64,000 bases of DNA from Chryseobacterium gleum (GCA_945871895.1 CAMBXP010000002.1:4308-68307), one strand, 5' to 3'. Shown: positions 35,226 through 57,785, counted from the first letter of the stretch. The notes: generated from the letters alone by a model not told the origin. Translations and numbers: made by a program.

Positions 35226-36077
35226 AATGTTAAATATTTTTATAAAGTTAATCAAATAGTGAACTTTCGTCAATTCAATGGCGTTTATTTATTATGAATA
35301 GCTGTTAATAACAATCAAATCAAATATTCAACATATAGACTTCAAATCAAAGAAAAGGTTTAAGCTAGAGCCTCACTCTTTGGAGGAAGTGAAACACCTC
35401 GTGTCATTGATGTCAAATGGTGTAGGTTAAATACCATTGCTCATTTCTTCATCTATCTTTACATACCAATTCTTCTTTGCCAAACCCTAAGTATTCCTTA
35501 TTTTCGTTCCTCAACTTCAGGTAGGCAAAACTTAGACTTAAAATTATGCTTAAAAATCAACGTAAACTTAAAGCGCTGTTCTTGAGAATAAAGCAAGGCA
35601 CTCAATGCTGATAAGGGTTTTAGAAAAACAAAAAGCGGACTAATACATCAAAATTTGGTGTTGTCCGCCTTGGTGGAGTCCACCGACCAACTGTCGAACC
35701 ACTTATATCAATCAATTGATGGTTTGCTGAGCTTGAGTAAGTCTTTATTACCATAGGTTGTAGCGTCCCTCGGTACTTTTCCTACTAATCTTTTTTAGGT
35801 TGAATTAATTTCTCTCAACACTGTTGAGAGTTTTGGAGGGTCTTTGTAGGTTTGATGAAATTGCTTCATTCTCTATAGATTCTTATCAGAAAAGCCTTTT
35901 ACGCTTGAATATTCGGCTAGAGGCAAAACTCCGGTATTTTCATTGGATAAACCAATTCTTAATGGGAAGCGGACAAGAGTCTATTATGTATTAACAAATT
36001 CTTTAGGAGAGATGGTTTAGAATTAAAAAATTACAAAATAAGACGACAGCAAATTAAAAATATCGTATATTCGTTAG

Positions 36078-37355: not shown

Positions 37356-37844
37356 ATGAAAAAGATTTTTGGATTACTTCTTATTGTTCTATTTGCATCA
37401 TGTGGTGCCGGCGATAAAACAGCTTTTGTAGATATTGATAAGGTATTTAATGAGTTTGAGCTTACGAAACAGAAGAAAGCCGAATACGAGAATACACTAA
37501 ATAAAAGAAAAGAAATTACCGATAAAGAGAAATTGCGTTTGCAACAAATTGCTGGCAAACTAGAGGCTCAAAAATCTCCCGATAAAAAAGAAGTAGAGAA
37601 ATTTCAAATCGATAGAGAAATGTTGCGTCAGAAAATGCAGGCCGATGAAGAACAAAATCGTGCAATGGATGATCAGTACACTTCTGAAATCTGGAAACAG
37701 TTGAACCAATACATGCAAGATTTTCAAAAAGACAATGGCTATACTTATGTCTTTATAAAGAGTAATATCATTGGTGATGAATCGAAAGATGTTACCAAAG
37801 ATGCCCAAGAGTTTGTAAATAAGAAGTTTAAAGGAGATAAATAA
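37356..37844 (+). CDS. OmpH/Skp-like periplasmic chaperone (lipoprotein)
   Basis: 162 aa. Lipobox LFASCGAG. Long coiled-coil stretch rich in K/E/Q, typical of OmpH family proteins. Confidence 0.6.
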   Translation: MKKIFGLLLIVLFASCGAGDKTAFVDIDKVFNEFELTKQKKAEYENTLNKRKEITDKEKLRLQQIAGKLEAQKSPDKKEVEKFQIDREMLRQKMQADEEQNRAMDDQYTSEIWKQLNQYMQDFQKDNGYTYVFIKSNIIGDESKDVTKDAQEFVNKKFKGDK

Positions 37845-37859
37845 TTCTTAAATTGCAGC

Positions 37860-38522
37860 ATGCGAAATCTGTTATTAATCATATTGTTTGTAGTAAGTGC
37901 TTTGTCTCTTAAGGCCCAAAAGCAGGAAATACCTGTGTATAGAGAAGTAATTGTGGTAACGAAAGAGCAAACACTGAAATTTCAAATTAAGGTGTTAAAA
38001 CAAACTATTTCTGCCAAAAGCGATTTAACTTATTTCTGGTATTCGGCAGATAAAGTGCATAGTTCAGAAGGTTCTTATGATGGTTATTTGTTAGATGGTT
38101 ATTATAGAGTGTTTGGTTTATCCGGACAACTTATTTCTCAAGGGTCTTTTGAGAAAGGAATTAAAACTGGTGAATGGAGAACGTGGTATGATAGCGGAGT
38201 TTTAAAAGAATTAGCACAGTACAAAGACGGAAAATTACACGGAGAACAAAAGATTTACAACGACAAAGGAGAATTGGTAGAGAATTACATTTATTCTGGT
38301 GATACAAAAAGAGATTTGTTTGCTGAAGCCGCCGACGCTAAAAAGCAAAAAGAGGCTAAAGCTAACGCCGCTGCTGAAAAACAAAAATTGAAAGAAGAAC
38401 AAAAGAAATCAAAAGAAGCTACCGAAACTAGGGAGCCGAAGAAGAAGTTTAGCTTCAAATCTTTGTTCAAGAAAAAAGAAAAGAAGGCAGGCGATTCTGC
38501 TAAGCCTTCAAAATCAAAATAA
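37860..38522 (+). CDS. MORN-repeat-variant protein (YwqK-like) with lysine-rich C-terminal tail
   Basis: 220 aa. Signal peptide. Repeated G-x-W-x-x-Y/G-x-L-x-G motifs (GEWRTWYDSGVLKELAQYKDGKLHGEQKIYNDKGELVE). C-terminal KKQKEAKANAAAEKQKLKEEQKK tail. Confidence 0.6.
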   Translation: MRNLLLIILFVVSALSLKAQKQEIPVYREVIVVTKEQTLKFQIKVLKQTISAKSDLTYFWYSADKVHSSEGSYDGYLLDGYYRVFGLSGQLISQGSFEKGIKTGEWRTWYDSGVLKELAQYKDGKLHGEQKIYNDKGELVENYIYSGDTKRDLFAEAADAKKQKEAKANAAAEKQKLKEEQKKSKEATETREPKKKFSFKSLFKKKEKKAGDSAKPSKSK

Positions 38523-38524
38523 AC

Positions 38525-39769
38525 ATGTTGCGTGCCTTTGCTTTATATGTGGCACTAATGATTTCGGTGGTGGTTGCGCTTATTTGTGGCAGCTTGCTTA
38601 CTCTGTATTACCTCAACGATAAAGAGTATTACTTAGTAGAAACCGATAGGCGACTAAGAAACAATGTGGAATCGGCTTTCAACTGGGTGCGCGAAAATGA
38701 ACTAAAAGAAGGTGTTGTTGTAAAAGATTTGTTCTCAGAAAATCGCGATAGCGTTAAAGTTACCACCCGCGATTGGGGCTTTTTAAATTTAATTTCATGC
38801 AAAGCTTTTTCAGGTTCGCGAAGTAAAACCAAAAGCGCCTTGATGGGGCCATTAATGCATTCTTCGAGTGAATACGCCTTGTATATGGGCAATTCCAATA
38901 AACCTCTTTCTTTGTGTGGAGAAGTGAAGTTGATGGGCGATTGTTTTGTGCCCGATGCAGGTGTGAAAAGAGCGTATATCGAAGGTCAGAATTTTATGGG
39001 CGATAAACTCATTAACGGTGAAGAAAAAAAGAGCGCTTCTTCTTTGCCCGAAATCAACAAAGAATTTGTGACCAATGTTTTAACTTATTTAAAGGGGGAA
39101 CACCATTCCGAAGATTCTGTTTTGGCATACAGCGCCGATTCAGTTAAAGTGATTAATTTCCTGGGCGAAAAAGTTTTACTATTCAGAAGTTCTTCGCCCA
39201 TCGTGCTTTCTAATGTTCAATACAAGGGTAAAGTGATAGTGCAATCTTCGCAATGGATTCGTGTGAAAAAAGATGCTCAGCTAGAAGATGTTTTACTTTT
39301 CGCTCCAGCTATTTTTGTAGATGATGACTTTAAAGGAAGTGCTCAATTCATTGCTTCAGATTCACTCGTGGTAGGTGAAGATTGTAAGTTCTTGTACCCT
39401 TCGGTTTTAGCCTTAGTGAATGATGCGCAAGATGATAAAAGTGCTGTGCTTACTATTGGCGAAGGAACAGAGATAAAAGGAGCTGTTATTTCATACAAAG
39501 AAAAACAAAGTGTGCGCAGTAGAAATTTTGTTGCGCTGGCTAAAGAAACAGAGGTTTATGGTTTGGTTTACAGCAACGGATTTTTAGAATTGAAAGGCGA
39601 AGTTTTTGGTTCTGTAGTTTGTCAGAGTTTTATCTTGCGAACAGCATCATCTGTGTACGAAAATCATTTACTCAATACAACTATTGATATAAGTAAATTG
39701 CCCAAAAATTATGTGGGGGTAAACTGGCTCAAAAAAGAAAGTCATTACGATATTATTAAGTTTTTCTAA
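38525..39769 (+). CDS. Membrane-anchored hypothetical protein, possibly a GspK-like minor pseudopilin lacking Glu5
   Basis: 414 aa. The N-terminus MLRAFALYVALMISVVVALICGSLL resembles a prepilin-like hydrophobic segment without Glu at +5, as in GspK/PilX-type minor pilins. The large periplasmic domain is not recognised. Confidence 0.35.
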   Translation: MLRAFALYVALMISVVVALICGSLLTLYYLNDKEYYLVETDRRLRNNVESAFNWVRENELKEGVVVKDLFSENRDSVKVTTRDWGFLNLISCKAFSGSRSKTKSALMGPLMHSSSEYALYMGNSNKPLSLCGEVKLMGDCFVPDAGVKRAYIEGQNFMGDKLINGEEKKSASSLPEINKEFVTNVLTYLKGEHHSEDSVLAYSADSVKVINFLGEKVLLFRSSSPIVLSNVQYKGKVIVQSSQWIRVKKDAQLEDVLLFAPAIFVDDDFKGSAQFIASDSLVVGEDCKFLYPSVLALVNDAQDDKSAVLTIGEGTEIKGAVISYKEKQSVRSRNFVALAKETEVYGLVYSNGFLELKGEVFGSVVCQSFILRTASSVYENHLLNTTIDISKLPKNYVGVNWLKKESHYDIIKFF

Positions 39770-40092
39770 TGAAGTTAAAAGCAAGCACTATAGTAGAAGT
39801 TTTAGTAGCCATCACCATTGTGTCGATATGCTTTACTGCTTTTTATGTGTGTTTTAGCATGGTGAATTCAAGTGATAAGTCGGCAAAAATGCTACGTGCT
39901 TTAGAGTTGGTGGAAGAATTAAAAAGCAACAATGATTTGAAAGAAGAAGAATTAGAATTGGGCAATCTTCAAGTAAGTAAAATGGTGGAAGATACCGATA
40001 ATCCCGATTTAAAACTTTTGCATTTTGAAGTAACGGAAGACAGTGTAGTAATAGAAAAAATGAATTGTTTTATTGTAGTGAAAAACAGGTAG
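39769..40092 (+). CDS. Small pilin-like protein (prepilin-type N-terminal helix with Glu5)
   Basis: 107 aa. MKLKA|STIVEVLVAITIVSI has Glu at +5 relative to a putative cleavage after Ala. The start overlaps the previous stop (ATGA). Confidence 0.4.
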   Translation: MKLKASTIVEVLVAITIVSICFTAFYVCFSMVNSSDKSAKMLRALELVEELKSNNDLKEEELELGNLQVSKMVEDTDNPDLKLLHFEVTEDSVVIEKMNCFIVVKNR

Positions 40093-40185
40093 AGCCAGAT
40101 AGAATCTGGCTTAAAATAGATTAATTCCATTTCCTTTTTAATCGGAATTTTTTTCTGTTTTAAGCCAGATTCTATCTGGCTCTAC
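40089..40185. repeat. Perfect 28-bp inverted repeat with self-palindromic arms (cruciform-capable)
   Basis: GTAGAGCCAGATAGAATCTGGCTTAAAA ... TTTTAAGCCAGATTCTATCTGGCTCTAC. Each arm itself contains AGCCAGAT/ATCTGGCT. Lies between the two pilin-like genes. Confidence 0.8.
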
Positions 40186-40206
40186 GGGGAAAAGAAGAGG
40201 AATACT

Positions 40207-40695
40207 ATGAAGTTAAACCAACATATAAAAGCATTTACCATACTAGAATTCCTAGTAGTCATTTCCCTATCTGCTATAGTGATGACCATCGCATACATGG
40301 TGTGGAATCGCTCTTTGGAAAGTTTTGCATCGTACAGCGAAAATAGTTCTGAAATCAATACTTTACATCGTTTTAAAAATGCAATGGAAGATGATTTTTT
40401 TGAATCGAAAAATGTGGTGTTGAGCAATTCAGGAATAGATTGTATTTTGCCCGATGGTAAAGTAATTGAATATGTTTTCTCGGCTGGAGAGATGGTGCGA
40501 AAAGTGGATGGCGATGAGTGGACTGTAGAGGTAGATGAAGTCAATATAGAAACACTACTCAACAGCCTCAAGCAAAAAGAAACCAATGGCTTAGTTGACG
40601 AAATAAAATTAGAATTTAAAATGCCAAACGAAAAGCAATCTTATATTTGGCGAGTGAATAAGCAATATGGCTTTTCCGATTTTTGGAATGATTAG
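40207..40695 (+). CDS. Prepilin-type N-terminal cleavage/methylation domain protein (type IV pilin/pseudopilin-like)
   Basis: 162 aa. MKLNQHIKA|FTILEFLVVISLSAIV matches the class III signal-peptide consensus (F-T-L-I/L-E) with Glu at +5. Confidence 0.55.
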   Translation: MKLNQHIKAFTILEFLVVISLSAIVMTIAYMVWNRSLESFASYSENSSEINTLHRFKNAMEDDFFESKNVVLSNSGIDCILPDGKVIEYVFSAGEMVRKVDGDEWTVEVDEVNIETLLNSLKQKETNGLVDEIKLEFKMPNEKQSYIWRVNKQYGFSDFWND

Positions 40696-40732
40696 TTTTG
40701 ATACATTGAATCCGTCAGCAGACGGACAGGCA

Positions 40733-40753
40733 TTTGAACATTAAACTTTGAAC
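40733..40753. repeat. TTGAACATTAAACTTTGAAC (TTCAATGTT family copy 3) next to the small hairpin CCGTCAGCAGACGG
   Basis: Differs at two positions from TTGAACATTAAACATTGAAC at 33022-33041. Confidence 0.5.
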
Positions 40754-40758
40754 TGATT

Positions 40759-41892
40759 TTGGTTGACTTAAATAAAATATCAGCTACTAAAAAGGTTTCT
40801 ACCAAAAAAGAGGGTGGAGTGATGTCTTTTTTGAATAAGGATATTTCATTGGGTAGCAAGCAGCTTAACGACAAAAAGAAGGAAGGTTTTTACAATGAAC
40901 TTACCTTATTGTTAGATGCTGGCGTAGATATTAAATCATCTTTAGAGCTCATAGAATCAGAGCAAGTTAAAAAACAAGATAAAGAACTGTTTGCCGAAAT
41001 TCGCCGACAAGTCATCAGTGGAAAAGGAATGTCGGAGGCGATGAAGAATAGCGGCAAGTTTTCCGATTACGAATATTATTCTGTGAAGATAGGAGAGGAG
41101 AGCGGACAGCTTCTGCAAGTATTACAGCAACTTCGATTGTATTTTGAAAAGAGAATTAAACAGCGCCGACAAATTGTTGGAGCACTTACCTATCCTTTAA
41201 TAGTAATAGCTGTGGCTTTCGGCGCAGTAGCTTTTATGATAAGTTTCGTAGTGCCAGCCTTCGCCGATATCTTCAAAAGGTTTAAAGCCGATTTACCTGC
41301 AGTCACTAAGTTCATTTTAAATTTATCAGAATCATTTCCACTATATTTTGGTACCTTTCTTCTACTAGTTTTAAGTGCTGTTGTTTTTTACAGAATGAAT
41401 CGTGCTAAAGTTTGGATGCGTAAATCACTTTCTTCTTTTACGCTTAAAATTCCAGTGATTGGTAACTTAATTCAACTTAGCTATCTCTCTCGTTTTGCGC
41501 AATCCATGTCTTTGTTGATTGCAGCTAAAGTACCACTCATTGAGGCGATGTCGCTCGTTCAAAAAATGATTAATTATTATCCTATTGAAATTTCGTTAGA
41601 AGCGATGGAGCACGAGATTATGAAGGGTAAATCACTCAGTGAAAGCATGAGTAAATACAAAATTTATCCTAAAAAAATGATTTACTTAATTAAAGTGGCC
41701 GAAGAGGTAAATCAAATGGATAAAATATTTGCTCAGTTGTCTCAACAGTATTCCGATGAGGTAGAACACAAATCGGGATTGATTAGCACGGTGATAGAAC
41801 CTATCTTAATTGTGTTTTTAGGGTTTATGGTGGCTTTTATTTTGGTGGCCATGTATTTACCAATGTTTAGTTTAACAAATGTTTTAGGTTAA
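40759..41892 (+). CDS. Type II secretion / type IV pilus platform protein (GspF/PilC family)
   Basis: 377 aa. Two T2SSF-type repeats, three TM helices, and conserved blocks (LLLDAGVDIKSSLELIE; YPLIVIAVAFGAVAFMISFVVPAFADIF; LISTVIEPILIVFLGFMVAFILVAMYLPMFSL). Confidence 0.8.
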   Translation: MVDLNKISATKKVSTKKEGGVMSFLNKDISLGSKQLNDKKKEGFYNELTLLLDAGVDIKSSLELIESEQVKKQDKELFAEIRRQVISGKGMSEAMKNSGKFSDYEYYSVKIGEESGQLLQVLQQLRLYFEKRIKQRRQIVGALTYPLIVIAVAFGAVAFMISFVVPAFADIFKRFKADLPAVTKFILNLSESFPLYFGTFLLLVLSAVVFYRMNRAKVWMRKSLSSFTLKIPVIGNLIQLSYLSRFAQSMSLLIAAKVPLIEAMSLVQKMINYYPIEISLEAMEHEIMKGKSLSESMSKYKIYPKKMIYLIKVAEEVNQMDKIFAQLSQQYSDEVEHKSGLISTVIEPILIVFLGFMVAFILVAMYLPMFSLTNVLG

Positions 41893-42234
41893 TTTTTTTT
41901 CGTCGGCAATTTTCATTGATTCGTCTTTATTGTGAATTCATTCGTGTGGATAAATTCCTTAAAATCCTTGTTTTTACTACTTGTTAAGGGAACATTATTT
42001 TTCAACAATACTTTTTTGATAACAAATATTTGTTCTATTTTCGCCGCCTACTAAAAATGGATATTACTACATCGGGGATTTTTAGATTGTAGATTGTGGA
42101 TGTTGATTTCGATTATTTATTTAAAATTAATGTAACTGGTATATCAATGCCATTACAAAAGTGTTGTGAAAACTAAGTTTTGGCAATGAATTTTGTTGTG
42201 GAAATAAAATGACGACTAACTAAAAAAAGAAAAA

Positions 42235-42681
42235 ATGAAGATTTCATATATCAAAAAAAGCATTTTAGTGCTCTTGGTTTTTTGCTCTATTGCTGCGTAC
42301 AGTCAAAGTGAAATTCAAGCGCTTTTGGTAGATTTTAAGCTTGATGCTAGTAAGGCTGTTATTGAGCCCGGACAAAATGCTAGCATGCACCCAGTAACAA
42401 AATTTGAGGTGATTTACCACATTAAAATAGCCGATAGTTTGCAAGTAAATGCTGTTGTGTTAAAGCTGGGTAATACACTTAACGGTGCCGAGTTTTTTAA
42501 TTTATCATTAAATACTAATGGCCAAAATTTACCTGCTGGGGTAAGCCTAAGTTACAGCGGTAGCGATTTAATAATTAATACAGGCAAATATGCCATCACG
42601 CCGCTATACTGTGCCAGCGCAAAAGTGCAATATGTAGGTGGTGCGTTTAGCGACTGGAAAATCAATACCAATATTCAATAA
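42235..42681 (+). CDS. Small secreted protein (paralogue A)
   Basis: 148 aa. Signal peptide. Shares a conserved pattern with the next gene (FKLDxxxA...LNGxxxF...LNTNGQNLPAGV/LNLDGSNLPQGI...LIINTG/LIVNTG...ASAKVQYVGGAFSD/ASAKLQYANGSFSA). Confidence 0.5.
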   Translation: MKISYIKKSILVLLVFCSIAAYSQSEIQALLVDFKLDASKAVIEPGQNASMHPVTKFEVIYHIKIADSLQVNAVVLKLGNTLNGAEFFNLSLNTNGQNLPAGVSLSYSGSDLIINTGKYAITPLYCASAKVQYVGGAFSDWKINTNIQ

Positions 42682-42690
42682 GGAACTTTC

Positions 42691-43179
42691 ATGATAAATA
42701 GATCACTTATGCCAAGCAAGAAAATATTAGTCGATTCATTCAACACTATTTTATCATTACTCAATAGCAAATTGAGTTTTGTTTTGTTGTTTTCAGGAGT
42801 TTTGTTGTGTAATACCAGCAACGCACAATCTTCAAGCAATTCACTTAAAGTTGAATTTAAACTTGATGACGCTGTTTCAAGTGCGAACATAAGTACCATA
42901 CCAGATGTGATTTTAACAGCCAACTTTTCCGATACCACTAATGCCTCAAAACTAATTATCACTTTGGGCAGCACCTTAAATGGTACCCAACATTTTTCTT
43001 ATGCTGTAAATCTTGACGGTAGTAATTTGCCACAAGGAATTACTTTGCAAAGAGAGGGATTAAATTTAATAGTAAATACTGGTGCGCATAGCGGGGTGGT
43101 TCAATATTATGCTAGCGCTAAATTACAATATGCAAATGGGTCGTTTAGTGCCGAAGAAAAAATAAACAATGTGGAGTAG
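42691..43179 (+). CDS. Small secreted protein (paralogue B)
   Basis: 162 aa. The true start may be an internal Met. Paralogous to 42235-42681 along its whole mature region. Confidence 0.5.
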   Translation: MINRSLMPSKKILVDSFNTILSLLNSKLSFVLLFSGVLLCNTSNAQSSSNSLKVEFKLDDAVSSANISTIPDVILTANFSDTTNASKLIITLGSTLNGTQHFSYAVNLDGSNLPQGITLQREGLNLIVNTGAHSGVVQYYASAKLQYANGSFSAEEKINNVE

Positions 43180-43214
43180 CGCAAGAATAAAGGGGTGAAA
43201 AATAAAGTATACAA

Positions 43215-46200
43215 ATGAAAAGATATTTTGAGATGAATAATACAAATATTAATAAAATAGTTGGTCATTGTGGTAAATTATTTTTGGCTTTCGCCTTTCT
43301 ACTTTTCACCTTTATTTCATACGCCCAAACCACTGTGTCTTTGCAGGCGAGTGCCGATGCACGTATCGATGCTTCAGGTTATTCAACCAATTACGCAACA
43401 GAAGCTGATGTAATTACCATGCCGTGGTCATCGTTGTACTCTCGTCGTTTTGTTATTAAATTTGATTTGTCATCTATTCCTACGGGTTCAACCATTCAGT
43501 CGGCAACACTTAAATTACGAGAAACAGGTACCTATGGTTATACAAGAACTATTAACGCCCATCGTTTAACAAGAGCATGGAATGAAAGCACCGTTACATG
43601 GAACACACCTTGGAGTGCTGGTGGTGCTGATTTTATTGCCACACCAGCAGCGAGCACAGCTATTTCATGGACAGGTACTTTGAAGCAAGATTCTTGGAAT
43701 CTTACTTCCGATGTGCAAGCAATGGTAGCAGGTACTAATACTAATAACGGATGGGTAATCAAAGATAATGTTGAAGATGCGTCTCAAAGATTTTGGAAAT
43801 TCGCAAGTAAGGAAAATGCAAACTCTTCTTTACGGCCGGTTTTAGTAATCACCTACACCAACGCGATAACAGTAAATGTAACTCCTGCATCGGCAACTAT
43901 TTGTGCTGGTGCAAATACTTCACTAACTGCTTCGGGCGCTACAACTTATTCGTGGAGTCCTTCAACTGGTTTGAGCTCAACAACAGGTGCTACGGTAACA
44001 GCTAGTCCTTCAACCACCACTACATATACTGTAACAGGCAGAGGAAGTGGAGGTGCCACTGCAACCAAAACGGTAACAGTAACTGTAAATTCCTTACCTA
44101 CAATTTCTGTTGCTCCAACTACAGCAGCATTTTGTGCTGGAAGGAATGTTCAATTGACTGCATCTGGTGCATCAACTTATTCATGGAGCCCAGCAACAGG
44201 ATTGTCAGCAACAAACATTGCAAATCCAACAGCGTCACCAGCGATCACAACAACCTATACTGTTAGCGGAACAGCTGCAAATGGATGTACAGCAACAGCC
44301 AGTAAAATTGTAACAGTGAATGCATTACCAACAGTAAGTGTTAGTCCAACTACAGCAGCATTTTGTGCTGGAGGGAATGTTCAATTGACTGCATCTGGTG
44401 CATCAACTTATTCGTGGAGCCCAGCAACAGGATTGTCAGCAACAAACATTGCAAATCCAACAGCTTCACCAGCGATCACAACAACCTATACTGTTAGCGG
44501 AACAGCTGTAAATGGATGTACAGCAAGTAAAACGGTAATCGTAACAGTTAATTCCTTACCTACAATTTCTATTGCTCCAAGCACAGCAGCATTTTGTGCT
44601 GGAGGAAATGTTCAATTGACAGCAACAGGCGCAACTACTTATTCATGGAGTCCAGTAACAGGTTTAAGTGCAACAACCGGCTCAGCTGTTTCAGCGTCCC
44701 CAGCGACGTCAACGTCCTATACAGTCAATGCTACCGATGCAAATGGATGTGCAACAACAGCAATAAAAATTGTAACAGTAAATGCGCTGCCAACAGTATC
44801 TGTCTCTCCAGCATTCGCCACAATAAATTCTGGTAACAGCACAACGCTAACTGCGTCAGGTGCTTCAACGTATTCATGGACTCCATCAACTGGTTTGTCA
44901 GCTACAAATATTGCCAATCCTTCTGCTAATCCAACTTCAACAATAACTTATATAGTAACTGGAACAAGTTCTGCAGGCTGTTTAGATACTCAAAGTGTGA
45001 AGGTTACTGTTGTTAATCCAACCTTAGAATGGGCCGAGTTAAATGGCATGAATTGGGTTTCACCAACTTTAACCAAAACTACCCCAAACGACTATACTAA
45101 CGGTAGTGCCTTCAGTAAAAACCATTTAAATGTCAATCAAGATGGTTGGGTTGAATTCACCATCAAAGGAAATTTTCACGATTATTTTGGTTTTGCCATT
45201 AAGAACTATTCTGCCTATAATAAAGACTTACGCTATGGTTTTGAGTATGCAAACGGCATAGCTGTAATGCATAAGGGTTCAAGATATACAATGGGCTCAG
45301 CAACCATTAACGATAAATTGAAAGTAGAGCGTGTTGGTGCTGCTATCAATTACTATAAAAATGGTGTTTTATTAATCAGTTTACCGGCTCCAACAAGTAA
45401 TGAAGAATTGTTTATTGATCTTTCAAATTATGCTCTCAATAGTACTCAAGAGGTAAGATCTAGCTTCACGGCAGATTTTAATATTTATGCTACGATTAAC
45501 GATAACAATCCCGCTTCTGCTTCTAGAGACGGAAGTATTTCTCTAGATCCTTTAAACGAAACCGGAACAGTAAGTTTTTTATGGAGCAACGGAGCAACTA
45601 CTTCTTCTATTAGTGGCTTAACGTCAGGAATTTACTCTGTAACGGTTACCAATGGCGCACAAACCATCAACCGCACTTATACCTTATTGAATAAACCAGT
45701 GTGGACCTCTTTAAAAAATATGAATGAAATTGGTGACGCGCGCTTAACAAAAACTACTCCAACCAATAGCAACGACGAACGAGGCAATGGAATGAGTAAA
45801 GTGTTTTTGCCAGCCAATCAAGATGGTTATATCGAATTTTTAGCTACCGATAATGGTGAATCTCAATTGTACTTTGGATTCTCTTCGGTACCAACCGATT
45901 TTTCAGGACACTATTTTTCTTATTCTGATATCGACTATTCTTTCTTTTGGTTTGGTGCTTATTGTTACATTACTGAAGGAGGAGGAGATGTGTTCAACAC
46001 GCCTACTGTTCTTCGCTCTAGCAAATTGCGCATTTCCCGTGAAGGAAGCTTTATAGTGTATTACATCGATGGCTTAGAAGTGAAGAGAACTGCAAGTAAT
46101 CCTAACAAAGATTTATTTGTGAAATTCACTCAAATGGGCCAAGCCGATCAAGGTGTTATAAGAACAAGCTTTGGTGGCAGTACCACTCCGTTCTACTCTC

Positions 46201-48623
46201 TTCAAGATAACAATCCTTCAACAGCAGCCGATGGTTCTATATCTGTTGAGGCCATAGGAGGGAAAGCGCCTTATACTTATTTGTGGAGCAATGGAGCAAC
46301 TACTGCTTCTATCGCTAATCTCGCTCCCGCACTCTATACTCTTACAATTACCGATGCTAATAATATTTCAAGTTCTAAAACATTCAAAGTAATGAATAAA
46401 GTAGCTTGGAAAAATTTAAACGGTGTTGCGCTTCAAAGCAATGATCGTTTAATAAAAACCGATCAAACAGATGATAACAATTCAGGGTGGGGTAGTTCTC
46501 AAAGCTATTTGCCTGCTGGGCAAGATGGTGAGCTTATCATCAACACAACCACTATTCCTAATAACTCAATTATAGGTTTCTCTGCGCATCCCATACTCTT
46601 TGCTCCAAATTACACTGGTAATTTGATTAATTATGGTGGCTTCTTTGGCGGTAATTATTTTCATGTGTACGAAGGTGGTGGAGAGGCTACCTATAATAAT
46701 AAGTTATATGGTGGTAATGAGTTTCGAATAGCAAGAGAAACCAACGCACAAACAGGTATTGCAACCATCGCTTATTATTTAAACGGACAAGAATTACGTC
46801 GTGTGCCAACACAATTGAATCAAGATTTGTTTGTGCTTTTCTCTATGCGAACACCTAATTTCGATTTTGGTAGAATACGTGCTAGTTTCGGTCATAATTT
46901 ACAAGCAAGCTACGAAGTAACAGATAACGACCCTATGCAAACGCCTAGCGGTTCTATTGTTGCTGAGGCGCTTGGAGGTACACCTCCATATACATATGTA
47001 TGGAGCAATGGAGCAACAACGCCTTCCATCTCTAATCTCGTTCCCAATAATTACACTCTTACTATTACTGATGCTAACGGACAAACAAGTCAAAAAACAT
47101 TTAATGTAGCCAACAAACCTGTTTGGACCAACCTTAATAAATTAACTCCAGGTAGCAATGGTTATTTGATAAAAGATGGCACCAACAACGATGGTTGGGC
47201 CAATTCAGCCAACTTTATTCCTGCTGGCGATGAAGGTTTTATGGAATACGTAGGTTTTGGTAGAGTGGCTTTATCGGTTGGTTTATCAAAAGACCCCTTT
47301 GTATTTACCCCTAATCAATCGGGCGATATATCTTATGGCGTTTTCTTGTGGCAATACACACGAGTAATTTACAAAGGCTATTGGACATCAGGACTCGATG
47401 ATCCATCAAAAGGTGGTGATTTATATCGCATAGAGCGAAAAATCAATGCGCAAAGCGGTCAGGCCGAAATGATATACTATTTAAATGGGGTAGAGAAAAA
47501 CCGTTTACCAGTAAACATCAACGAAGACTTGTATATAAAAGTAATGGTTCAAATAGCCTATAGCAATTTAGGTTATGTTCGTTTGAGTCACGGACACCAA
47601 TTCAATGCATCGGCAACGGTATCACATGTTAGCGCAAAGCCTTATAACGGCGCAATAAATGTTACGCAATTTGGCGGACAAAAACCTTATCAATCCCTTT
47701 GGTCGAATGGTGCTACTACTCAAGACCTTTCTACATTAAAGAAAGGAGTTTATTCATTGCAAACCACCGATTCATTATCTGCGGTTAAAACCCGTGAATT
47801 CGAGCTTCTAAATAAAATAGAATGGGCACATGCTAGCGGTATTAGCGAACAAGACAACCTTACTAAAATAAGCTCTTCAAACGCTTTGGCGACCTCAAAA
47901 AACTATTTAGACCCACAACAAAATGGTAAAGTCGATTTTCAATTTGCAGTTGCAGGTGTAGGTAAAATGGGATTCACCACTGATGACGATATCAATAGCG
48001 GTTCCGATATTAAATACGGTTTTTACCAGTGGAATGTGTACTTGCATATGATTTATAATGGTAACGAAGTGGGTTTTCAAATACCAGGCGGACAATATTT
48101 CCAAAGTGCCAACAAGCTATCGCTCGAACGTATTGGCAATGTGATGTACTACAAGTTAAATGGAGTTGTGGTATACCAAGGGGCAGTGCCGCCAGAAGAA
48201 AAACTATATGTTGGTGTGAGTTCTTACGCTAATGGTAATAAGGTAATGAGGGTGCTGACTAATTTTGGGGAGGGGAAAGAATCTGTAGTTTCAACTTCAA
48301 AAGCATACTCTCAGCTTCAAACGGAATTAGATCATAAATACAGTAATGTGATTAACAACGAGCTATTGTTTATCTATGATGAGGAATATGAAGTTTCTGA
48401 AAATTCCAAGCTTCATTATAAAGTGTACGATAAAGACAGAAATGAGGTGATAAATGAAACAGAATTCGCAATTGCCATAAAAAGAGGTTTAAATAAAGTT
48501 GTAATTCCTTGCCTCTCAGATAAAATTGGTTCAACAGGTTTCTTCATACTAGAAGTAAAGAATGATAAAAATGATACCTGGTATCTTCGTTTTCAATTAG
48601 CAAATAGTACCAACTGTAATTAA
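43215..48623 (+). CDS. Giant secreted protein with DNRLRE domain, about five tandem Ig-like domains and four SprB repeats (candidate cell-surface adhesin)
   Basis: 1802 aa. Signal peptide. N-terminal DNRLRE-type domain (DARIDASGYSTNYATEADVI...RRFVIKFDLSSIPTGSTIQSATLKLRETG...VTWNTPWS). Tandem ~80-aa Ig-like repeats of the form STYSWSPATGLSATNIANPTASPAITTTYTVSGTA. Four SprB-type repeats (e.g. SGSIVAEALGGTPPYTYVWSNGATTPSISNLVPNNYTLTITDANGQ), each followed by a ~200-aa domain. Confidence 0.75.
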   Translation: MKRYFEMNNTNINKIVGHCGKLFLAFAFLLFTFISYAQTTVSLQASADARIDASGYSTNYATEADVITMPWSSLYSRRFVIKFDLSSIPTGSTIQSATLKLRETGTYGYTRTINAHRLTRAWNESTVTWNTPWSAGGADFIATPAASTAISWTGTLKQDSWNLTSDVQAMVAGTNTNNGWVIKDNVEDASQRFWKFASKENANSSLRPVLVITYTNAITVNVTPASATICAGANTSLTASGATTYSWSPSTGLSSTTGATVTASPSTTTTYTVTGRGSGGATATKTVTVTVNSLPTISVAPTTAAFCAGRNVQLTASGASTYSWSPATGLSATNIANPTASPAITTTYTVSGTAANGCTATASKIVTVNALPTVSVSPTTAAFCAGGNVQLTASGASTYSWSPATGLSATNIANPTASPAITTTYTVSGTAVNGCTASKTVIVTVNSLPTISIAPSTAAFCAGGNVQLTATGATTYSWSPVTGLSATTGSAVSASPATSTSYTVNATDANGCATTAIKIVTVNALPTVSVSPAFATINSGNSTTLTASGASTYSWTPSTGLSATNIANPSANPTSTITYIVTGTSSAGCLDTQSVKVTVVNPTLEWAELNGMNWVSPTLTKTTPNDYTNGSAFSKNHLNVNQDGWVEFTIKGNFHDYFGFAIKNYSAYNKDLRYGFEYANGIAVMHKGSRYTMGSATINDKLKVERVGAAINYYKNGVLLISLPAPTSNEELFIDLSNYALNSTQEVRSSFTADFNIYATINDNNPASASRDGSISLDPLNETGTVSFLWSNGATTSSISGLTSGIYSVTVTNGAQTINRTYTLLNKPVWTSLKNMNEIGDARLTKTTPTNSNDERGNGMSKVFLPANQDGYIEFLATDNGESQLYFGFSSVPTDFSGHYFSYSDIDYSFFWFGAYCYITEGGGDVFNTPTVLRSSKLRISREGSFIVYYIDGLEVKRTASNPNKDLFVKFTQMGQADQGVIRTSFGGSTTPFYSLQDNNPSTAADGSISVEAIGGKAPYTYLWSNGATTASIANLAPALYTLTITDANNISSSKTFKVMNKVAWKNLNGVALQSNDRLIKTDQTDDNNSGWGSSQSYLPAGQDGELIINTTTIPNNSIIGFSAHPILFAPNYTGNLINYGGFFGGNYFHVYEGGGEATYNNKLYGGNEFRIARETNAQTGIATIAYYLNGQELRRVPTQLNQDLFVLFSMRTPNFDFGRIRASFGHNLQASYEVTDNDPMQTPSGSIVAEALGGTPPYTYVWSNGATTPSISNLVPNNYTLTITDANGQTSQKTFNVANKPVWTNLNKLTPGSNGYLIKDGTNNDGWANSANFIPAGDEGFMEYVGFGRVALSVGLSKDPFVFTPNQSGDISYGVFLWQYTRVIYKGYWTSGLDDPSKGGDLYRIERKINAQSGQAEMIYYLNGVEKNRLPVNINEDLYIKVMVQIAYSNLGYVRLSHGHQFNASATVSHVSAKPYNGAINVTQFGGQKPYQSLWSNGATTQDLSTLKKGVYSLQTTDSLSAVKTREFELLNKIEWAHASGISEQDNLTKISSSNALATSKNYLDPQQNGKVDFQFAVAGVGKMGFTTDDDINSGSDIKYGFYQWNVYLHMIYNGNEVGFQIPGGQYFQSANKLSLERIGNVMYYKLNGVVVYQGAVPPEEKLYVGVSSYANGNKVMRVLTNFGEGKESVVSTSKAYSQLQTELDHKYSNVINNELLFIYDEEYEVSENSKLHYKVYDKDRNEVINETEFAIAIKRGLNKVVIPCLSDKIGSTGFFILEVKNDKNDTWYLRFQLANSTNCN
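43860..45010 (+). repeat. Intragenic tandem repeat array (~230-240-bp unit, about 5 copies) encoding Ig-like domains
   Basis: Copies at roughly 44087-44324 and 44325-44552 are ~97% identical at the DNA level. Flanking copies are more divergent. Confidence 0.8.
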
Positions 48624-54701: not shown

Positions 54702-55151
54702 ATGAAGTATATATTTTATTTATTCCTAGGATTTCCTCTTTTTACTTTTGCACAAATAAAAGTAAAAAGTAGCAGCAGTTGTGTAAGCCCTCATCGTGCC
54801 GATTTAAGTGGTACATGCGTGAAATATTATATCACAACCTTTGCAGATTCTAACTATGTTGCAAACGGAGATTCAATAATTTTTAAGGTTACAACTACTA
54901 CAAATGAAGTGTACTTGAAAAAATTATTGTTTCATATAAATCCTGAAACTGGTTCAGGTAAATTCATTCCAGTTTTTTCAGAAACAAAAGATTGTAATGT
55001 GGTTTTTTTGAACAAAAAGAATGGAGATTTTGAGGTTTCTTGTTTTAGTCCAATTCCCCAAAATTATTGTTCACTGAATTTGATTTTTATTTCAAAATCT
55101 TTAAATCAAGTTTTCTCAGCTCCTTCAATACAATTAAAAGGATGTCAGTAA
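54702..55151 (+). CDS. Small secreted hypothetical protein
   Basis: 149 aa. Signal peptide (FPLFTFAQ). Several Cys residues. No recognisable domain. Confidence 0.4.
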   Translation: MKYIFYLFLGFPLFTFAQIKVKSSSSCVSPHRADLSGTCVKYYITTFADSNYVANGDSIIFKVTTTTNEVYLKKLLFHINPETGSGKFIPVFSETKDCNVVFLNKKNGDFEVSCFSPIPQNYCSLNLIFISKSLNQVFSAPSIQLKGCQ

Positions 55152-55195
55152 TTAAATAAATGAAAAAATAATTAGTAGCTCAATAATATATTTCG

Positions 55196-56938: not shown

Positions 56939-56962
56939 TATAGATGTTTTGCGAATAAAATC

Positions 56963-57691
56963 ATGCAAATGAAATTGATAAATAGAACCCGGTTAGCAAA
57001 TCATAAAATGTTGCAGTCATTTTGTGTTGTTGCGTTTTTATTATTCAATGGATTGTTGTTTTCTCAAGATTTTGCTGCCGATTTTCAAGCGGTACAGAAA
57101 TTTAATCAAAATGAAATTCTTGCTTTGGAATTCACGGTTGAAAGTCATTTTAAAATGGGTGATACTGATACTCTTATTGTTTACAAAGGAAGTTCTGTAA
57201 GGTATAACGAGATGTATTATTCTAAAAATGGTAGTATAGAAATTATAGCCGATAATAATGTTATGATTACTGCCGATCATAAAAACAAAACTCTAAAATT
57301 ATATTCCCCAGCTATTTTAAAAGAGATACAAAGAAAACAAGCGATGTCTTTCAGTTTTGTGGATGAACAAAGAGATTCTGTTGTGTATTTAGGCTTGTTT
57401 GCCAACATTAAAAAGTACGAGGTCTTCACAAAAAACAATACTATAAATTCAGTTGTAGTAAAAATCGATGAACAAAACCGCTTGTGCGAATTAACTATTA
57501 ATTATTTGCCAAATCAAAGTGGTTTGCTAACCACTTCTACAAAATTCAGCAACTATAATACTCAGTTTAAAAAAAACGATTTTGTGTGGAAAACACAAGA
57601 TTTTGTGCTTCATAAAAAGAAGGAATATATTCTTACTCCTTCATTCGAAAAATATAGGCTATTTAACAACATAGAATTAGAAAAGAATTAA
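56963..57691 (+). CDS. Secreted hypothetical protein
   Basis: 242 aa. Signal peptide. No recognisable domain. Confidence 0.4.
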   Translation: MQMKLINRTRLANHKMLQSFCVVAFLLFNGLLFSQDFAADFQAVQKFNQNEILALEFTVESHFKMGDTDTLIVYKGSSVRYNEMYYSKNGSIEIIADNNVMITADHKNKTLKLYSPAILKEIQRKQAMSFSFVDEQRDSVVYLGLFANIKKYEVFTKNNTINSVVVKIDEQNRLCELTINYLPNQSGLLTTSTKFSNYNTQFKKNDFVWKTQDFVLHKKKEYILTPSFEKYRLFNNIELEKN

Positions 57692-57785
57692 AGTGCGCAG
57701 TATGAATTTTTTGAATTTACAATTTCAACAAGTCAAATGTTTAACCAACATTTTAAAATACCAGCGCAATAAAAAATCGTGTGAT

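What the first reader, a model, noticed from the sequence alone, without database searches (positions are those of the whole stretch)
37356..48623. Type IV filament-like mini-cluster (GspK-like, two Glu5 prepilins, GspF/PilC) linked to paralogous secreted proteins and a giant SprB-repeat adhesin, with no ATPase or secretin in the window
Three consecutive genes have prepilin-type N-termini: one lacks Glu5 like GspK/PilX, and two have the canonical F/S-T-I-L/V-E motif. They are followed by a clear GspF/PilC platform gene. Downstream are two small paralogous secreted proteins (candidate pilus subunits or tip factors) and a 1802-aa DNRLRE / Ig-like / SprB-repeat protein. SprB-repeat proteins are normally tied to the T9SS gliding machinery, so physical linkage to a T4P/T2SS-like module is unexpected. 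The missing GspE/PilB ATPase, prepilin peptidase and secretin imply either a trans-acting core elsewhere or a minimal non-canonical filament system.
Basis: partly seen in the sequence, partly recalled or inferred. Interest (0 to 1): 0.65.

Follow-up and report, generated by a model that had tools for sequence, protein, structure and literature searches.

The report
Half of a Bacteroidota pilus-like secretion cluster
The genes are the conserved back half of the already described pilus-like 'type II secretion' cluster of Bacteroidota; its motor, channel and main pilin genes have been separated from it by a rearrangement, and it sits next to a set of giant surface-protein genes that accompany this cluster in many distant relatives.

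Summary
At 38525-41892 there is one large Glu5-less pilin, two Glu5 minor pilins and a GspF/PilC platform gene. No ATPase, secretin or prepilin peptidase gene occurs in the window.

This is not a minimal system. It is "module B" (MORN protein, large pilin, two pilins, GspF) of the 13-gene Bacteroidota cluster known from Cytophaga hutchinsonii as a putative T2SS, which has been shown phylogenetically to group with type IVa pili. In about 100 related loci module B keeps this order. "Module A" (major pilin, peptidase, ATPase, secretin, PilMN-like and three more genes) lies before it, after it, inverted, or more than 10 kb away.

A relative with a 94%-identical large pilin, from the same sample, has module A directly after GspF. 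The window keeps a 103-bp remnant of the major-pilin gene, cut exactly at the prepilin cleavage codon.

The "GspK-like" protein is predicted to be a pilin domain plus a beta-helix, most like the Thermus tip pilin ComZ.

The downstream linkage is real and recurrent. Of 36 non-redundant loci, 24 carry at least one of these neighbour families: SpvB-N giants, a Skp-like chaperone, a ~200-aa protein, or CBM96/SprB proteins sharing an undescribed C-terminal domain. Whether these are cargo is untested.

The parts
35473..35583 (+). Remnant of the major-pilin gene of module A. It holds about 73 bp of upstream sequence plus the leader codons MLKNQRKLKA. Homology ends exactly at the codon of the -1 Ala of the prepilin cleavage site.
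   Evidence: 91% identity over 103 bp to the start of the major-pilin gene of L026. L026 continues FTLTELLVVLG..., whereas the window reads LFLRIKQGTQC*.
35598..35678 (.). Fragment matching the terminator and last ~10 nt at the 3' end of the tmRNA gene of relative L029. There it adjoins a serine-recombinase element. This marks an integration or rearrangement junction.
   Evidence: 81 bp at 91% identity to L029 16855-16935. ARAGORN finds the tmRNA at L029 16928-17326 and none in the window. Rfam finds nothing in the window stretch.
37356..37844 (+). Skp/OmpH-like periplasmic chaperone with a lipoprotein-like signal. It is the first gene of the tightly packed run that ends with GspF.
   Evidence: PF03938 45.2 bits. 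An OmpH gene adjoins the cluster in 13 of 36 non-redundant loci, usually just before the SpvB-like giant. dN/dS is 0.00-0.05 against close relatives.
37860..38522 (+). Secreted MORN-repeat protein with a Lys-rich tail. It is the conserved first gene of module B.
   Evidence: PF07661 34.5 bits. It is found directly upstream of the p414 homologue in most loci.
38525..39769 (+). Large minor pilin without Glu5 (p414). It consists of an N-terminal pilin domain (helix 2-57 plus a four-stranded sheet) and a beta-helix (about residues 119-390). It is the predicted pilus-tip subunit and is ComZ-like.
   Evidence: AlphaFold2 model with pLDDT 91.2 and pTM 0.87. The best PDB match is ComZ 6qvi (E 2.9e-4, probability 0.93), followed by ice-binding beta-helices. 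270 homologues were found, and M1 and A4 are nearly invariant.
39769..40092 (+). Small minor pilin (107 aa), MKLKA|STIVE.
   Evidence: N_methyl 19.4 bits and TIGR02532 16.0 bits, both just under threshold. The motif is kept in 75 of 84 family members, with Ala at -1 in 57.
40089..40185 (.). Palindromic insert between the two minor-pilin genes: perfect 28-nt arms with a 41-nt loop. It is absent in L026 and L028, where the genes abut, and a different ~190-bp insert occupies the same junction in L031.
   Evidence: RNA fold -62 kcal/mol.
40207..40695 (+). Minor pilin (162 aa), MKLNQHIKA|FTILE.
   Evidence: N_methyl 24.1 bits and TIGR02532 19.9 bits, both above threshold. The motif is kept in 80 of 86 family members.
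40759..41892 (+). GspF/PilC-family inner-membrane platform protein. It is complete. The start is either TTG at 40759 or ATG at 40822.
   Evidence: PF00482 152.6 bits with two domains. It scores TIGR02120 257 bits and the PilC models 209-212 bits, all below their equivalog cut-offs. It is 42-77% identical to GspF genes in complete clusters.
42235..43179 (+). Two paralogous small proteins with Sec-type N-termini by inspection (148 and 162 aa). They accompany the CBM96-type protein and are not pilins.
   Evidence: 38% identical to each other. Homologues lie immediately upstream of a CBM96 protein in L028 and L021. They have no class III motif and no family hit.
43215..48623 (+). 1802-aa CBM96/DNRLRE, Ig_7 and SprB-repeat protein. 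It ends in a conserved ~95-aa C-terminal domain (48294-48620) that no library describes.
   Evidence: The C-terminal domain is shared by differently sized proteins next to the cluster in 9 of 36 loci. It has 251 cluster representatives in a library of 1.84 billion proteins, almost always at the extreme C-terminus.
48646..54690 (+). 2014-aa giant with a SpvB-type N-terminal domain. It is the neighbour most often linked to the cluster.
   Evidence: PF03534 25.2 bits. Homologues lie within 10 kb of the cluster in 16 of 36 non-redundant loci. It is adjacent to the complete cluster in Olleya sp. CP058987.
54702..64000 (+). Rest of the accessory island. It holds a 149-aa protein; a 580-aa protein carrying the C-terminal tail that normally ends the SpvB-like giant; a LolA3-like 242-aa protein; and a 3307-aa YD/RHS-type giant that runs off the window.
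   Evidence: The same order (SpvB-like, tail protein, ~245 aa, DUF6443/RHS giant) is seen in Olleya, Mucilaginibacter and Chitinophaga.

Best explanation
Window 37356-41892 is the conserved distal module of the Bacteroidota type IVa-pilus-like machine, which the literature calls the Bacteroidetes 'T2SS'. It encodes a Skp-like chaperone, a MORN protein, the tip/initiation set of minor pilins and the PilC/GspF platform. The minor-pilin set is one large Glu5-less pilin with a beta-helix head plus two small Glu5 pilins.

Inferred mechanism:
1. The three pilins are cut by a prepilin peptidase after a conserved Ala at -1.
2. They assemble on the platform into the complex that primes the filament and caps it. 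The beta-helix sits at the tip, as proposed for ComZ and GspK.
3. The filament is polymerised from the major pilin by a PilB/GspE ATPase and passes through a secretin.

Those parts (module A) are not in the window. Rearrangement at an integration hot spot separated them from module B, so they must be supplied from elsewhere in the genome if the system still works.

The genes downstream of GspF are a local version of an accessory island that accompanies this machine across several lineages of the phylum. They are the best candidates for what the machine exports, displays or works with.

Shown here: gene identities, conserved order, modular rearrangement, the pilin remnant, purifying selection, and the recurrence of the neighbours. 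Inferred: cleavage, tip location, dependence on a distant module A, and any cargo relationship.
For: Identity of the genes.

Conserved block: MORN, p414, pilin, pilin, GspF occur in the same order in loci from Cytophagales, Chitinophagaceae, Sphingobacteriaceae and Flavobacteriales.

Complete 13-gene clusters in relatives: pilin, A24-like peptidase, T2SSE, secretin, PilN-like protein and three more genes, followed by module B.

Module A position varies. It lies upstream, downstream, inverted, or absent within 10 kb. It is absent in the cultured Pedobacter nototheniae and Lacibacter cauensis.

Close relatives:
- L026 has a p414 homologue 94% identical in amino acids and comes from the same sample. 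There the pilin, peptidase and ATPase genes directly follow GspF.
- The window holds a 103-bp remnant of the pilin gene beside a fragment of the tmRNA 3' end.

Selection: all six genes are intact, with dN/dS of 0.00-0.17 against relatives at dS up to 1.5. This includes L028, which also lacks an adjacent module A in the short contig sequence available.

Published gene order: Fjoh_0611-0622 and CHU_3191-3202 match the B-then-A layout, and mutants affect cellulose use and adhesion (PMC5553014). The system branches with T4aP (PMC6668835).

Accessory island.
Against: - Module A was not found for this organism. Only about 73 kb of its genome is available.
- The pilin remnant shows that at least one copy of module A was disrupted, so the system may be defunct in this strain.
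- Orthology to the C. hutchinsonii and F. johnsoniae genes rests on gene content and order, not on a direct sequence comparison.
- pil107 misses the curated pilin thresholds by 0.3-1.8 bits.
- No dedicated class III signal-peptide predictor was available.
- The ComZ match has low global TM-scores (0.16-0.23) and 9% sequence identity, so it is an architectural resemblance only.
Confidence: 0.8

Rival explanations
1. Orphan remnant. Module A was deleted from this strain and exists nowhere else in it. The five genes are then a recently stranded, non-functional half-system that has not yet decayed.
For: The major-pilin gene is reduced to its promoter and leader. It is fused within 14 bp to a tmRNA-3'-end fragment, followed by a zeta-toxin-type pair. 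Relative L029 shows the layout A, OmpH, B, from which a single deletion would give the window's arrangement. No module-A gene is recognisable in the 64-kb window. The gene calls for about 3 kb more of the contig show only the continuing 3307-aa giant.
Against: All six ORFs are intact, with no frameshift. L031 and L028 also lack an adjacent module A in the limited contig sequence available, yet keep module B under strong purifying selection (dN/dS 0.02-0.17 at dS 0.15-1.5). That argues that separation from module A is compatible with function. Split layouts also occur in cultured genomes.
Confidence: 0.25
2. Minimal non-canonical filament system. The pilins and platform would work without a dedicated ATPase, secretin or peptidase.
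For: Only the absence of those genes from the window.
Against: Wherever enough sequence is available, the same block is found with the full machinery either adjacent or rearranged. No known type IV filament polymerises without a PilB/GspE-family ATPase (established knowledge of the superfamily, PMC6668835).
Confidence: 0.02
3. The downstream giants are unrelated to the pilus machine. They are T9SS-secreted gliding or adhesion proteins that merely accumulate at a recombination hot spot next to it.
For: - The flanks are hypervariable among close relatives: phage-like genes in L026, tRNA-Leu in L002, and tmRNA plus a recombinase in L029.
- SprB repeats are typical of T9SS cargo.
- 2 of 9 isolated C-terminal domains give sub-threshold Por_Secre_tail matches.
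- 2 of 3 SpvB-like genes sampled from the family side are not next to pilus genes, and one lies near gldLMN.
Against: - 24 of 36 non-redundant loci from several lineages of the phylum carry at least one of the same accessory families. 16 carry the SpvB-like giant.
- In 15 of 15 interpretable cases that gene is co-directional downstream or divergent upstream, and never convergent.
- No curated T9SS C-terminal domain is detected at the C-terminus of the 1802-aa or 2014-aa proteins.
Confidence: 0.35

Closest known systems
Putative T2SS of Cytophaga hutchinsonii (CHU_3191-CHU_3202) and its counterparts Fjoh_0611-0622 and Phep_1100-1112 (Wang et al. 2017, PMC5553014). Denise, Abby and Rocha 2019 (PMC6668835) reclassified it as grouping with T4aP.
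   Same: The gene content and order of module B match: three pilin-like genes next to the T2S-F gene, followed in relatives by G, O, E, D and PilMNOP-like genes. It is specific to Bacteroidota. The minor pilins are very divergent.
   Different: Only the distal half is present here. An OmpH gene heads the block. The large pilin was not characterised in that work (CHU_3202 is listed only as hypothetical). No direct sequence comparison with the CHU or Fjoh proteins could be made.
ComZ, the competence-associated tip pilin of Thermus thermophilus (PDB 6qvi; PMC6561018)
   Same: The architecture is the same: a type IV pilin domain joined to a large beta-solenoid too bulky for the fibre body. The second-best structural matches are ice-binding beta-helices, just as reported for ComZ. 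Both are encoded beside small minor pilins.
   Different: Sequence identity is 9% and global TM-scores are low. In p414 the beta-helix follows the pilin domain rather than being inserted in it. DNA binding is unknown. The host system has been linked to protein presentation and adhesion, not competence.
GspK/PilX-type minor (pseudo)pilins of T2SS and T4aP
   Same: p414 lacks Glu5, is the largest minor pilin, is encoded with two or three small minor pilins, and is expected to cap the filament.
   Different: There is no match to the GspK family models. The extra domain is a beta-helix, not the alpha-helical insertion of GspK.
Tc-toxin TcB / SpvB N-terminal domain and RHS/YD polymorphic-toxin loci (PMC3482391)
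   Same: The 2014-aa protein has the SpvB-type N-terminal motif. The island contains YD/RHS-type giants and shows a displaced C-terminal module, which is typical of polymorphic-toxin loci.
   Different: No TcdB mid-domains, no clear RHS cocoon and no toxin domain were detected. The structure model is of low confidence (pLDDT 65). No association of such proteins with a type IV filament machine was found in the papers searched here.

Membership tests
Bacteroidota T4aP-like system ('Bacteroidetes T2SS', CHU_3191-3202 type) | Block of MORN protein, large Glu5-less pilin, two Glu5 minor pilins and T2SSF platform, in this order | tested here: met
   Same order in L002-L019 and in about 80 metagenome loci.
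Bacteroidota T4aP-like system ('Bacteroidetes T2SS', CHU_3191-3202 type) | Major pilin, A24-type peptidase, single T2SSE ATPase, secretin and PilMN-like genes in the same locus | tested here: not met
   None in the 64-kb window. Only a 103-bp pilin-gene remnant remains. These genes are present in relatives.
Bacteroidota T4aP-like system ('Bacteroidetes T2SS', CHU_3191-3202 type) | Sequence orthology to CHU_3199-3202 / Fjoh_0611-0614 | not testable with these tools
   Those sequences could not be retrieved. Equivalence rests on the published gene order and on cultured relatives such as Olleya.
Canonical type II secretion system (Gsp) | GspF equivalog score | tested here: not met
   TIGR02120 scores 257 bits against a cut-off of 424. 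The PilC and HofC models score 210-212 bits, also below their cut-offs.
Canonical type II secretion system (Gsp) | GspK-family minor pseudopilin | tested here: not met
   p414 has no Pfam or NCBIfam pilin/GspK hit. Its fold is pilin plus beta-helix.
Canonical type II secretion system (Gsp) | Phylogenetic grouping of the core proteins with the T2SS clade | not tested
   The literature places the Bacteroidetes system with T4aP (PMC6668835). No tree was built here.
Type IV pilins (class III signal, N-terminal methylation motif) | Match to PF07963 / TIGR02532 above threshold | tested here: inconclusive
   pil162 passes (24.1 and 19.9 bits). pil107 is just below (19.4 and 16.0 bits). p414 gives no hit. 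The family-wide motif [A/S/G]|x[ST]xxE is conserved in 75 of 84 and 80 of 86 members.
Type IV pilins (class III signal, N-terminal methylation motif) | Pilin fold: long N-terminal helix packed on an antiparallel sheet | tested here: met
   Met for p414 only: helix 2-57 plus strands 63-110, pLDDT about 90. The two small pilins were not modelled.
Type IV pilins (class III signal, N-terminal methylation motif) | Cleavage by a prepilin peptidase | not testable with these tools
   This needs an experiment or a dedicated predictor.
ComZ-like tip pilins | Pilin domain joined to a large beta-solenoid | tested here: met
   Foldseek top hits are 6qvi chains (E 2.9e-4 to 3.4e-3), followed by ice-binding proteins. 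This is architecture only; identity is 9%.
ComZ-like tip pilins | DNA binding and a role in natural transformation | not testable with these tools
   No evidence either way.
T9SS cargo (for the 1802-aa SprB-repeat protein) | Type A (TIGR04183 / PF18962) or type B (TIGR04131 / PF13585) sorting domain at the C-terminus | tested here: not met
   The only Por_Secre_tail signal is internal (775-819) and below or near threshold. The C-terminal 152 aa give no hit at E up to 1. 2 of 9 homologous C-terminal domains give 13-16 bits.
Tc toxin TcB / SpvB-N proteins (for the 2014-aa protein) | SpvB N-terminal domain | tested here: met
   PF03534 scores 25.2 bits against a cut-off of 22, covering residues 55-120 only. 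Foldseek matches 6p0x at E 0.036 and probability 0.94, on a low-confidence model.
Tc toxin TcB / SpvB-N proteins (for the 2014-aa protein) | TcdB mid domains and RHS cocoon | tested here: not met
   No such Pfam hits in the protein or in 10 relatives. No PDB sequence match.

The most novel reading that the evidence does not exclude
The type IVa-pilus-derived machine of Bacteroidota may be a dedicated export or display system for its conserved neighbours. These are:
- CBM96/SprB-repeat proteins of very different sizes that share an undescribed ~95-residue C-terminal domain, which would then act as a sorting or docking signal;
- giant SpvB-N/YD-type proteins, handled in the periplasm by the co-encoded Skp-like and LolA-like chaperones.

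This would define the long-missing substrates of the 'Bacteroidetes T2SS' and a second C-terminal-domain-guided secretion route in the phylum beside the T9SS.
Probability: 0.2. Interest if true: 0.8.

Novelty: new member of a known kind. Interest (0 to 1): 0.45.

Why it matters
The machine itself is known but barely studied. Its direct substrates are unidentified (PMC5553014), and its placement among type IV filaments marks it as a possible independent invention of secretion from a pilus (PMC6668835).

This analysis adds four testable points:
- The cluster is built from two modules that are shuffled and separated in evolution.
- Its largest minor pilin is predicted to be a ComZ-like beta-helix tip.
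- Its pilins use Ala rather than Gly before the cleavage site.
- A recurrent set of neighbouring genes, including a new C-terminal domain family, gives concrete candidates for cargo or partners. Several occur in cultured strains.

For the window itself the message is more modest. The apparent 'mini system' is half of a known one.

Tried and rejected
- PHROGs gave no hits for p414, the small paralogues or other unknowns.
- The sigma-70 promoter and terminator scan was uninformative. It found fewer promoter-like sites than in shuffles, and Bacteroidota promoters are not covered by the scan.
- A 14-mer (TCTATTTTCGCCGC) occurs only 22 nt before the OmpH start and 187 nt before par148. It hinted at co-regulation, but it is conserved only upstream of OmpH in the two nearest relatives. 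It is left as a lead.
- I first read the 81-bp stretch after the pilin remnant as the 3' end of a serine-recombinase gene. ARAGORN and an alignment showed that it is the terminator and 3' tip of the neighbouring tmRNA gene. Rfam did not call it in the window.
- Riemerella natural-transformation papers were checked for a link to this cluster and none was found.
- Sequence searches of the SpvB-like giant, the RHS-type giant and the new C-terminal domain against the PDB found nothing.
- The structure model of the first 1200 residues of the giant was too weak to interpret (pLDDT 65). Its best matches were a designed beta-barrel and the SpvB N-domain at E above 0.01.
- The small paralogues have only three close homologues in the indexed search, so no useful alignment could be built for a structure prediction.
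- The look-up of p242 to read beyond the window failed. The look-up of the 580-aa protein showed only that the last ORF is 3307 aa.

Full report
**What is in the interval**

The + strand between 37356 and 41892 carries six closely spaced genes:
- a Skp/OmpH-like chaperone (37356-37844; PF03938, 45 bits);
- a secreted MORN-repeat protein (37860-38522);
- a 414-aa protein with no family hit (38525-39769);
- a 107-aa protein (39769-40092);
- a 162-aa protein (40207-40695);
- a GspF/PilC platform protein (40759-41892; two T2SSF domains, 152.6 bits).

The 162-aa protein (MKLNQHIKA|FTILE) passes the curated thresholds of both prepilin models. The 107-aa protein (MKLKA|STIVE) misses them by 0.3-1.8 bits. 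The 414-aa protein starts MLRA|FALYV, which has the same basic-Ala leader but no Glu at +5.

After a 343-bp gap come two 38%-identical small proteins with Sec-type N-termini by inspection (42235-42681 and 42691-43179). An 1802-aa DNRLRE/CBM96, Ig_7 and SprB-repeat protein follows (43215-48623).

No T2SSE ATPase, secretin or A24 peptidase is encoded anywhere in the 64 kb. This rests on Pfam scans of all large ORFs and on blastp and tblastn with the corresponding proteins of relatives.

**Origin**

The window is part of a 73-kb contig of an ENA metagenome assembly (ERZ27280247). GC is about 36%. The flanking genes are ordinary chromosomal genes: gyrA, clpB, recF, dciA and an Opp-type transporter. 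The closest genome-level relatives are uncultured Bacteroidota.

**What it is**

The 414-aa protein has at least 270 homologues, all about 415-445 aa. I fetched the DNA around GspF or p414 homologues from reference genomes (19 loci) and metagenomes (80 loci), and around individual proteins. I then mapped genes by blastp and phmmer.

- The block MORN, p414, small pilin, larger pilin, GspF ("module B") appears in the same order almost everywhere. This covers MAGs assigned to Cytophagales, Chitinophagaceae and Flavobacteriales, as well as Pedobacter and Lacibacter.
- In most loci with enough sequence it is joined to "module A": a major pilin (KLKA|FTLTE), a short A24-like peptidase, one T2SSE ATPase, a secretin, a ~400-aa PilN-like protein and three further conserved genes.
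- Module A lies upstream of B (for example L004, L012, L019, L021, L023, L024), downstream of B (L008, L014, L026, L034, Olleya), or inverted upstream (L003, L006, L007, L010).
- In other loci it is not within 10 kb: the window, L002, L013 Pedobacter nototheniae, L015 Lacibacter cauensis, L016 and L017.

This 13-gene system is the one described as a putative T2SS in Cytophaga hutchinsonii (CHU_3191-3202), with counterparts Fjoh_0611-0622 and Phep_1100-1112 (PMC5553014). The published order for F. johnsoniae is three minor pseudopilins, F, G, O, E, D, then PilMNOP-like genes, which is the B-then-A layout.

Denise, Abby and Rocha found that this "so-called T2SS of Bacteroidetes" always clusters with T4aP. 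They suggested it may be a secretion system derived independently from a pilus (PMC6668835).

The window's "mini-cluster" is therefore half of a known system. I could not compare sequences directly with the CHU or Fjoh proteins.

**The pilins**

Across the fetched loci the small pilin family keeps [A/G/S]|x-[S/T]-x-x-E followed by a hydrophobic helix in 75 of 84 unique ORFs (Ala at -1 in 57). The larger pilin family keeps it in 80 of 86 (Ala 64, Ser 13, Gly 3; Phe at +1 in 71). The major pilins read KLKA|FTLTE. Ala rather than the usual Gly before the cleavage site is thus a trait of this system.

Among 91 unique full-length p414 homologues, 61 start M-[LI]-[KR]-[AGS] followed by a hydrophobic helix. 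In those 61 the +5 residue is Tyr or Val in 52 and is never Glu.

An AlphaFold2 model of p414 from a 49-sequence alignment is confident (pLDDT 91.2, pTM 0.87). It shows a 56-residue N-terminal helix packed on a four-stranded sheet, which is the type IV pilin fold. A large beta-helix follows.

Against the PDB the best matches are the three chains of ComZ, the competence-associated tip pilin of Thermus thermophilus (E 2.9e-4, probability 0.93). Ice-binding beta-helices come next. The ComZ authors reported the same pair of similarities for their protein, and they argued that such a bulky pilin can only sit at the fibre tip, like GspK (PMC6561018).

"GspK-like" is therefore right as a functional analogy but not as a family assignment. 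The resemblance to ComZ is architectural (9% identity, low global TM-score).

**Why the core is missing here**

Close relatives show how unstable the flanks are. DNA homology to L026, L028 and L031/L032 starts between 37191 and 37356 (at or shortly before the OmpH start) and stops at or within about 240 bp after the GspF stop. Upstream of this block the relatives carry different things:
- phage-like genes (L026);
- a tRNA-Leu (L002);
- a 409-aa protein of unknown function (L028).

In L029 a serine-recombinase element and the tmRNA gene lie downstream of GspF instead.

L026 comes from the same sample, and its p414 homologue is 94% identical in amino acids. There the pilin, peptidase and ATPase genes follow GspF directly.

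In the window, 1.8 kb upstream of OmpH, positions 35473-35583 are 91% identical to the promoter region and first ten codons of that pilin gene (MLKNQRKLKA). Homology stops exactly at the cleavage-site codon, and the reading frame ends 11 codons later.

Fourteen bases further on, an 81-bp stretch is 91% identical to the terminator and 3' tip of the tmRNA gene of L029. A 76-aa/zeta-toxin-type gene pair follows.

The simplest reading is that a module A once lay here, in the layout A, OmpH, B seen in L029, and was removed or displaced by events at an integration hot spot.

Whether another copy exists elsewhere cannot be decided from 73 kb. No module-A gene is recognisable in the 64-kb window. The gene calls for about 3 kb beyond its end show only the continuing 3307-aa giant. 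The rest of the contig was not examined.

Arguments for a still-functional module:
- All six ORFs are intact.
- dN/dS against L031, L026 and L028 is 0.00-0.17 at dS 0.15-1.5.
- L028 and L031 also lack an adjacent module A within the contig sequence available, which is only about 1.7-2.8 kb upstream of OmpH and about 7-8 kb downstream of GspF.
- Cultured Pedobacter and Lacibacter genomes have the split layout.

My estimates are about 0.6 for "core elsewhere", 0.25 for "recent orphan" and 0.02 for a truly minimal system.

**The downstream linkage**

I expected this to be coincidental, and it is not. I clustered loci at 90% p414 identity and kept the 36 with at least 8 kb of sequence outside the core genes. 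Counts among those 36:

| Neighbour family | Loci |
|---|---|
| Homologue of the 2014-aa protein (48646-54690) | 16 |
| OmpH gene | 13 |
| Conserved ~200-aa protein, always between OmpH and the giant | 13 |
| Protein ending in the C-terminal domain of the 1802-aa protein | 9 |
| ~320-aa family | 5 |
| Homologue of the small paralogues | 4 |
| At least one of the above | 24 |

The 2014-aa family has a weak SpvB N-terminal domain. Its gene is co-directional downstream of GspF in 12 loci, divergent upstream of module B in 3, and never convergent. One further locus is scrambled.

At chance level, a frequency of 44% within about 20 kb would need hundreds of copies per genome.

A reverse test started from three cultured carriers of the giant:
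- In Olleya sp. HaHaR_3_96 the complete cluster is followed by OmpH, 193 aa, 394 aa, the giant, an Ig_7 protein, a ~241-aa protein and a 3026-aa DUF6443/RHS protein.
- In Mucilaginibacter gotjawali and Chitinophaga lutea the giant, a ~247-aa protein and a DUF6443 giant occur together, but not next to pilus genes.

The association is therefore strong but not obligatory.

The window's island is a local version of this set: par, par, the 1802-aa protein, the 2014-aa giant, a 149-aa protein, a 580-aa protein, a LolA3-like 242-aa protein and a 3307-aa YD-type giant. The small paralogues precede a CBM96 protein also in L028 and L021. This ties them to that protein and not to the pilus.

**A new C-terminal domain**

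The last ~95 residues of the 1802-aa protein align with the C-termini of differently sized neighbours of the cluster. The consensus is YAxLKxKLDGGY...LYFxYxEEY...LxYKxYD...YGDNRY...GxYYxLEVxNxKxEKxYLRFxY.

An exhaustive phmmer search found 251 cluster representatives. In about 145 of the 150 listed, the match lies at the extreme C-terminus of proteins of 86 to 2293 aa. The carriers I scanned are CBM96, Ig_7 and SprB-repeat proteins.

Pfam and NCBIfam do not recognise the domain. The Por_Secre_tail signals in these proteins are internal, over SprB repeats. Only 2 of 9 isolated domains reach 13-16 bits. There is no PDB sequence match.

A conserved terminal domain on variable passengers is what a sorting or anchoring signal looks like. 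Which machine reads it, if any, is unknown. It could still be a divergent T9SS signal.

**How it most likely works**

Shown: gene identities, order, modularity, the remnant, selection and the recurrent neighbours.

Inferred: the three pilins are processed after Ala by the system's short A24-type peptidase. They form the priming and capping complex on the PilC/GspF platform, with the beta-helix at the tip. The ATPase then polymerises the major pilin through the secretin.

In C. hutchinsonii, mutants of the D, F and G genes change the cellulose-bound outer-membrane protein profile and reduce adhesion. The soluble secretome is unchanged and no direct substrate is known. The conserved neighbours are therefore reasonable candidates for cargo or partners, but this is a hypothesis (about 0.2).

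**Verdict**

The feature is a new member of a known, little-studied system, present here as a separated half. Interest is moderate. It rests on the comparative by-products (modularity, the ComZ-like tip pilin, the accessory island and the new C-terminal domain) and not on the window's locus itself.

Noticed in passing
window 35473-35678: A 103-bp remnant of the major-pilin gene (promoter plus leader, cut at the cleavage codon) lies 14 bp from an 81-bp copy of the terminator and 3' tip of a tmRNA gene. No intact tmRNA or tRNA gene is in the window.
   Followed up: yes
window 40089-40185: A perfect 28-nt inverted repeat with a 41-nt loop (RNA fold -62 kcal/mol) is inserted between the two minor-pilin genes. 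Relatives L026 and L028 have no insert. L031 has an unrelated ~190-bp insert at the same junction. No other copy was found in the window or in 114 loci.
   Followed up: partly
window 37320-37333 and 42034-42047: The exact 14-mer TCTATTTTCGCCGC occurs only twice in the window: 22 nt before the OmpH start and 187 nt before par148. A 2-mismatch copy abuts the def start at 24244. It contains TAttTTcG, close to the Bacteroidota -7 promoter motif, and may be a shared promoter element. It is conserved only in the two nearest relatives.
   Followed up: partly
window 48294-48620 (C-terminus of the 1802-aa protein): An undescribed ~95-aa C-terminal domain family has 251 representatives at 50% clustering, nearly always at the very end of CBM96/SprB-repeat proteins of 86-2293 aa.
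   Followed up: yes
window 48646-56938: The 2014-aa SpvB-like protein stops just after the conserved HTGxYS motif. The C-terminal tail that ends most family members (YxDDxR...LDENN...YEYDxEG) is instead at the end of the separate 580-aa protein two genes downstream. This looks like a cassette-type rearrangement, as in polymorphic-toxin loci.
   Followed up: partly
window 56963-57691 and 57702-64000 (continues about 3.6 kb beyond the window): A LolA3-like 242-aa protein is followed by a 3307-aa YD/RHS-type giant. The same pair follows SpvB-like giants in Olleya, Mucilaginibacter and Chitinophaga (there with DUF6443).
   Followed up: partly
window 36078-37083, hairpin 37147-37180: A 76-aa ORF overlaps a 260-aa zeta-toxin/AAA-type ORF, a possible toxin-antitoxin pair. 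A 15-bp-stem hairpin follows, just before the point where homology to close relatives begins.
   Followed up: no
window 25538-32524: An Opp-type ABC transporter operon (binding protein and two permeases) is interrupted twice by paralogous AAA_14/DUF4143 ATPase genes (28791-29984 and 31337-32524).
   Followed up: no
L013 3-6350 (Pedobacter nototheniae), also L002, L023, L049, L079, L112: A ~320-400-aa family with a faint YadA_head signal recurs beside the cluster. Pedobacter nototheniae has seven tandem paralogues directly upstream of module B.
   Followed up: no
window 40207-40695 / L001 11860-12171: The metagenome gene caller started the 162-aa pilin at an internal Met (103 aa), removing its class III signal. 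Automated annotation would therefore miss this pilin.
   Followed up: yes
L113 1-3292 (Mucilaginibacter gotjawali): One SpvB-like giant module lies about 7 kb from gldL, gldM and gldN (T9SS core genes). This is a single case and may be chance.
   Followed up: no
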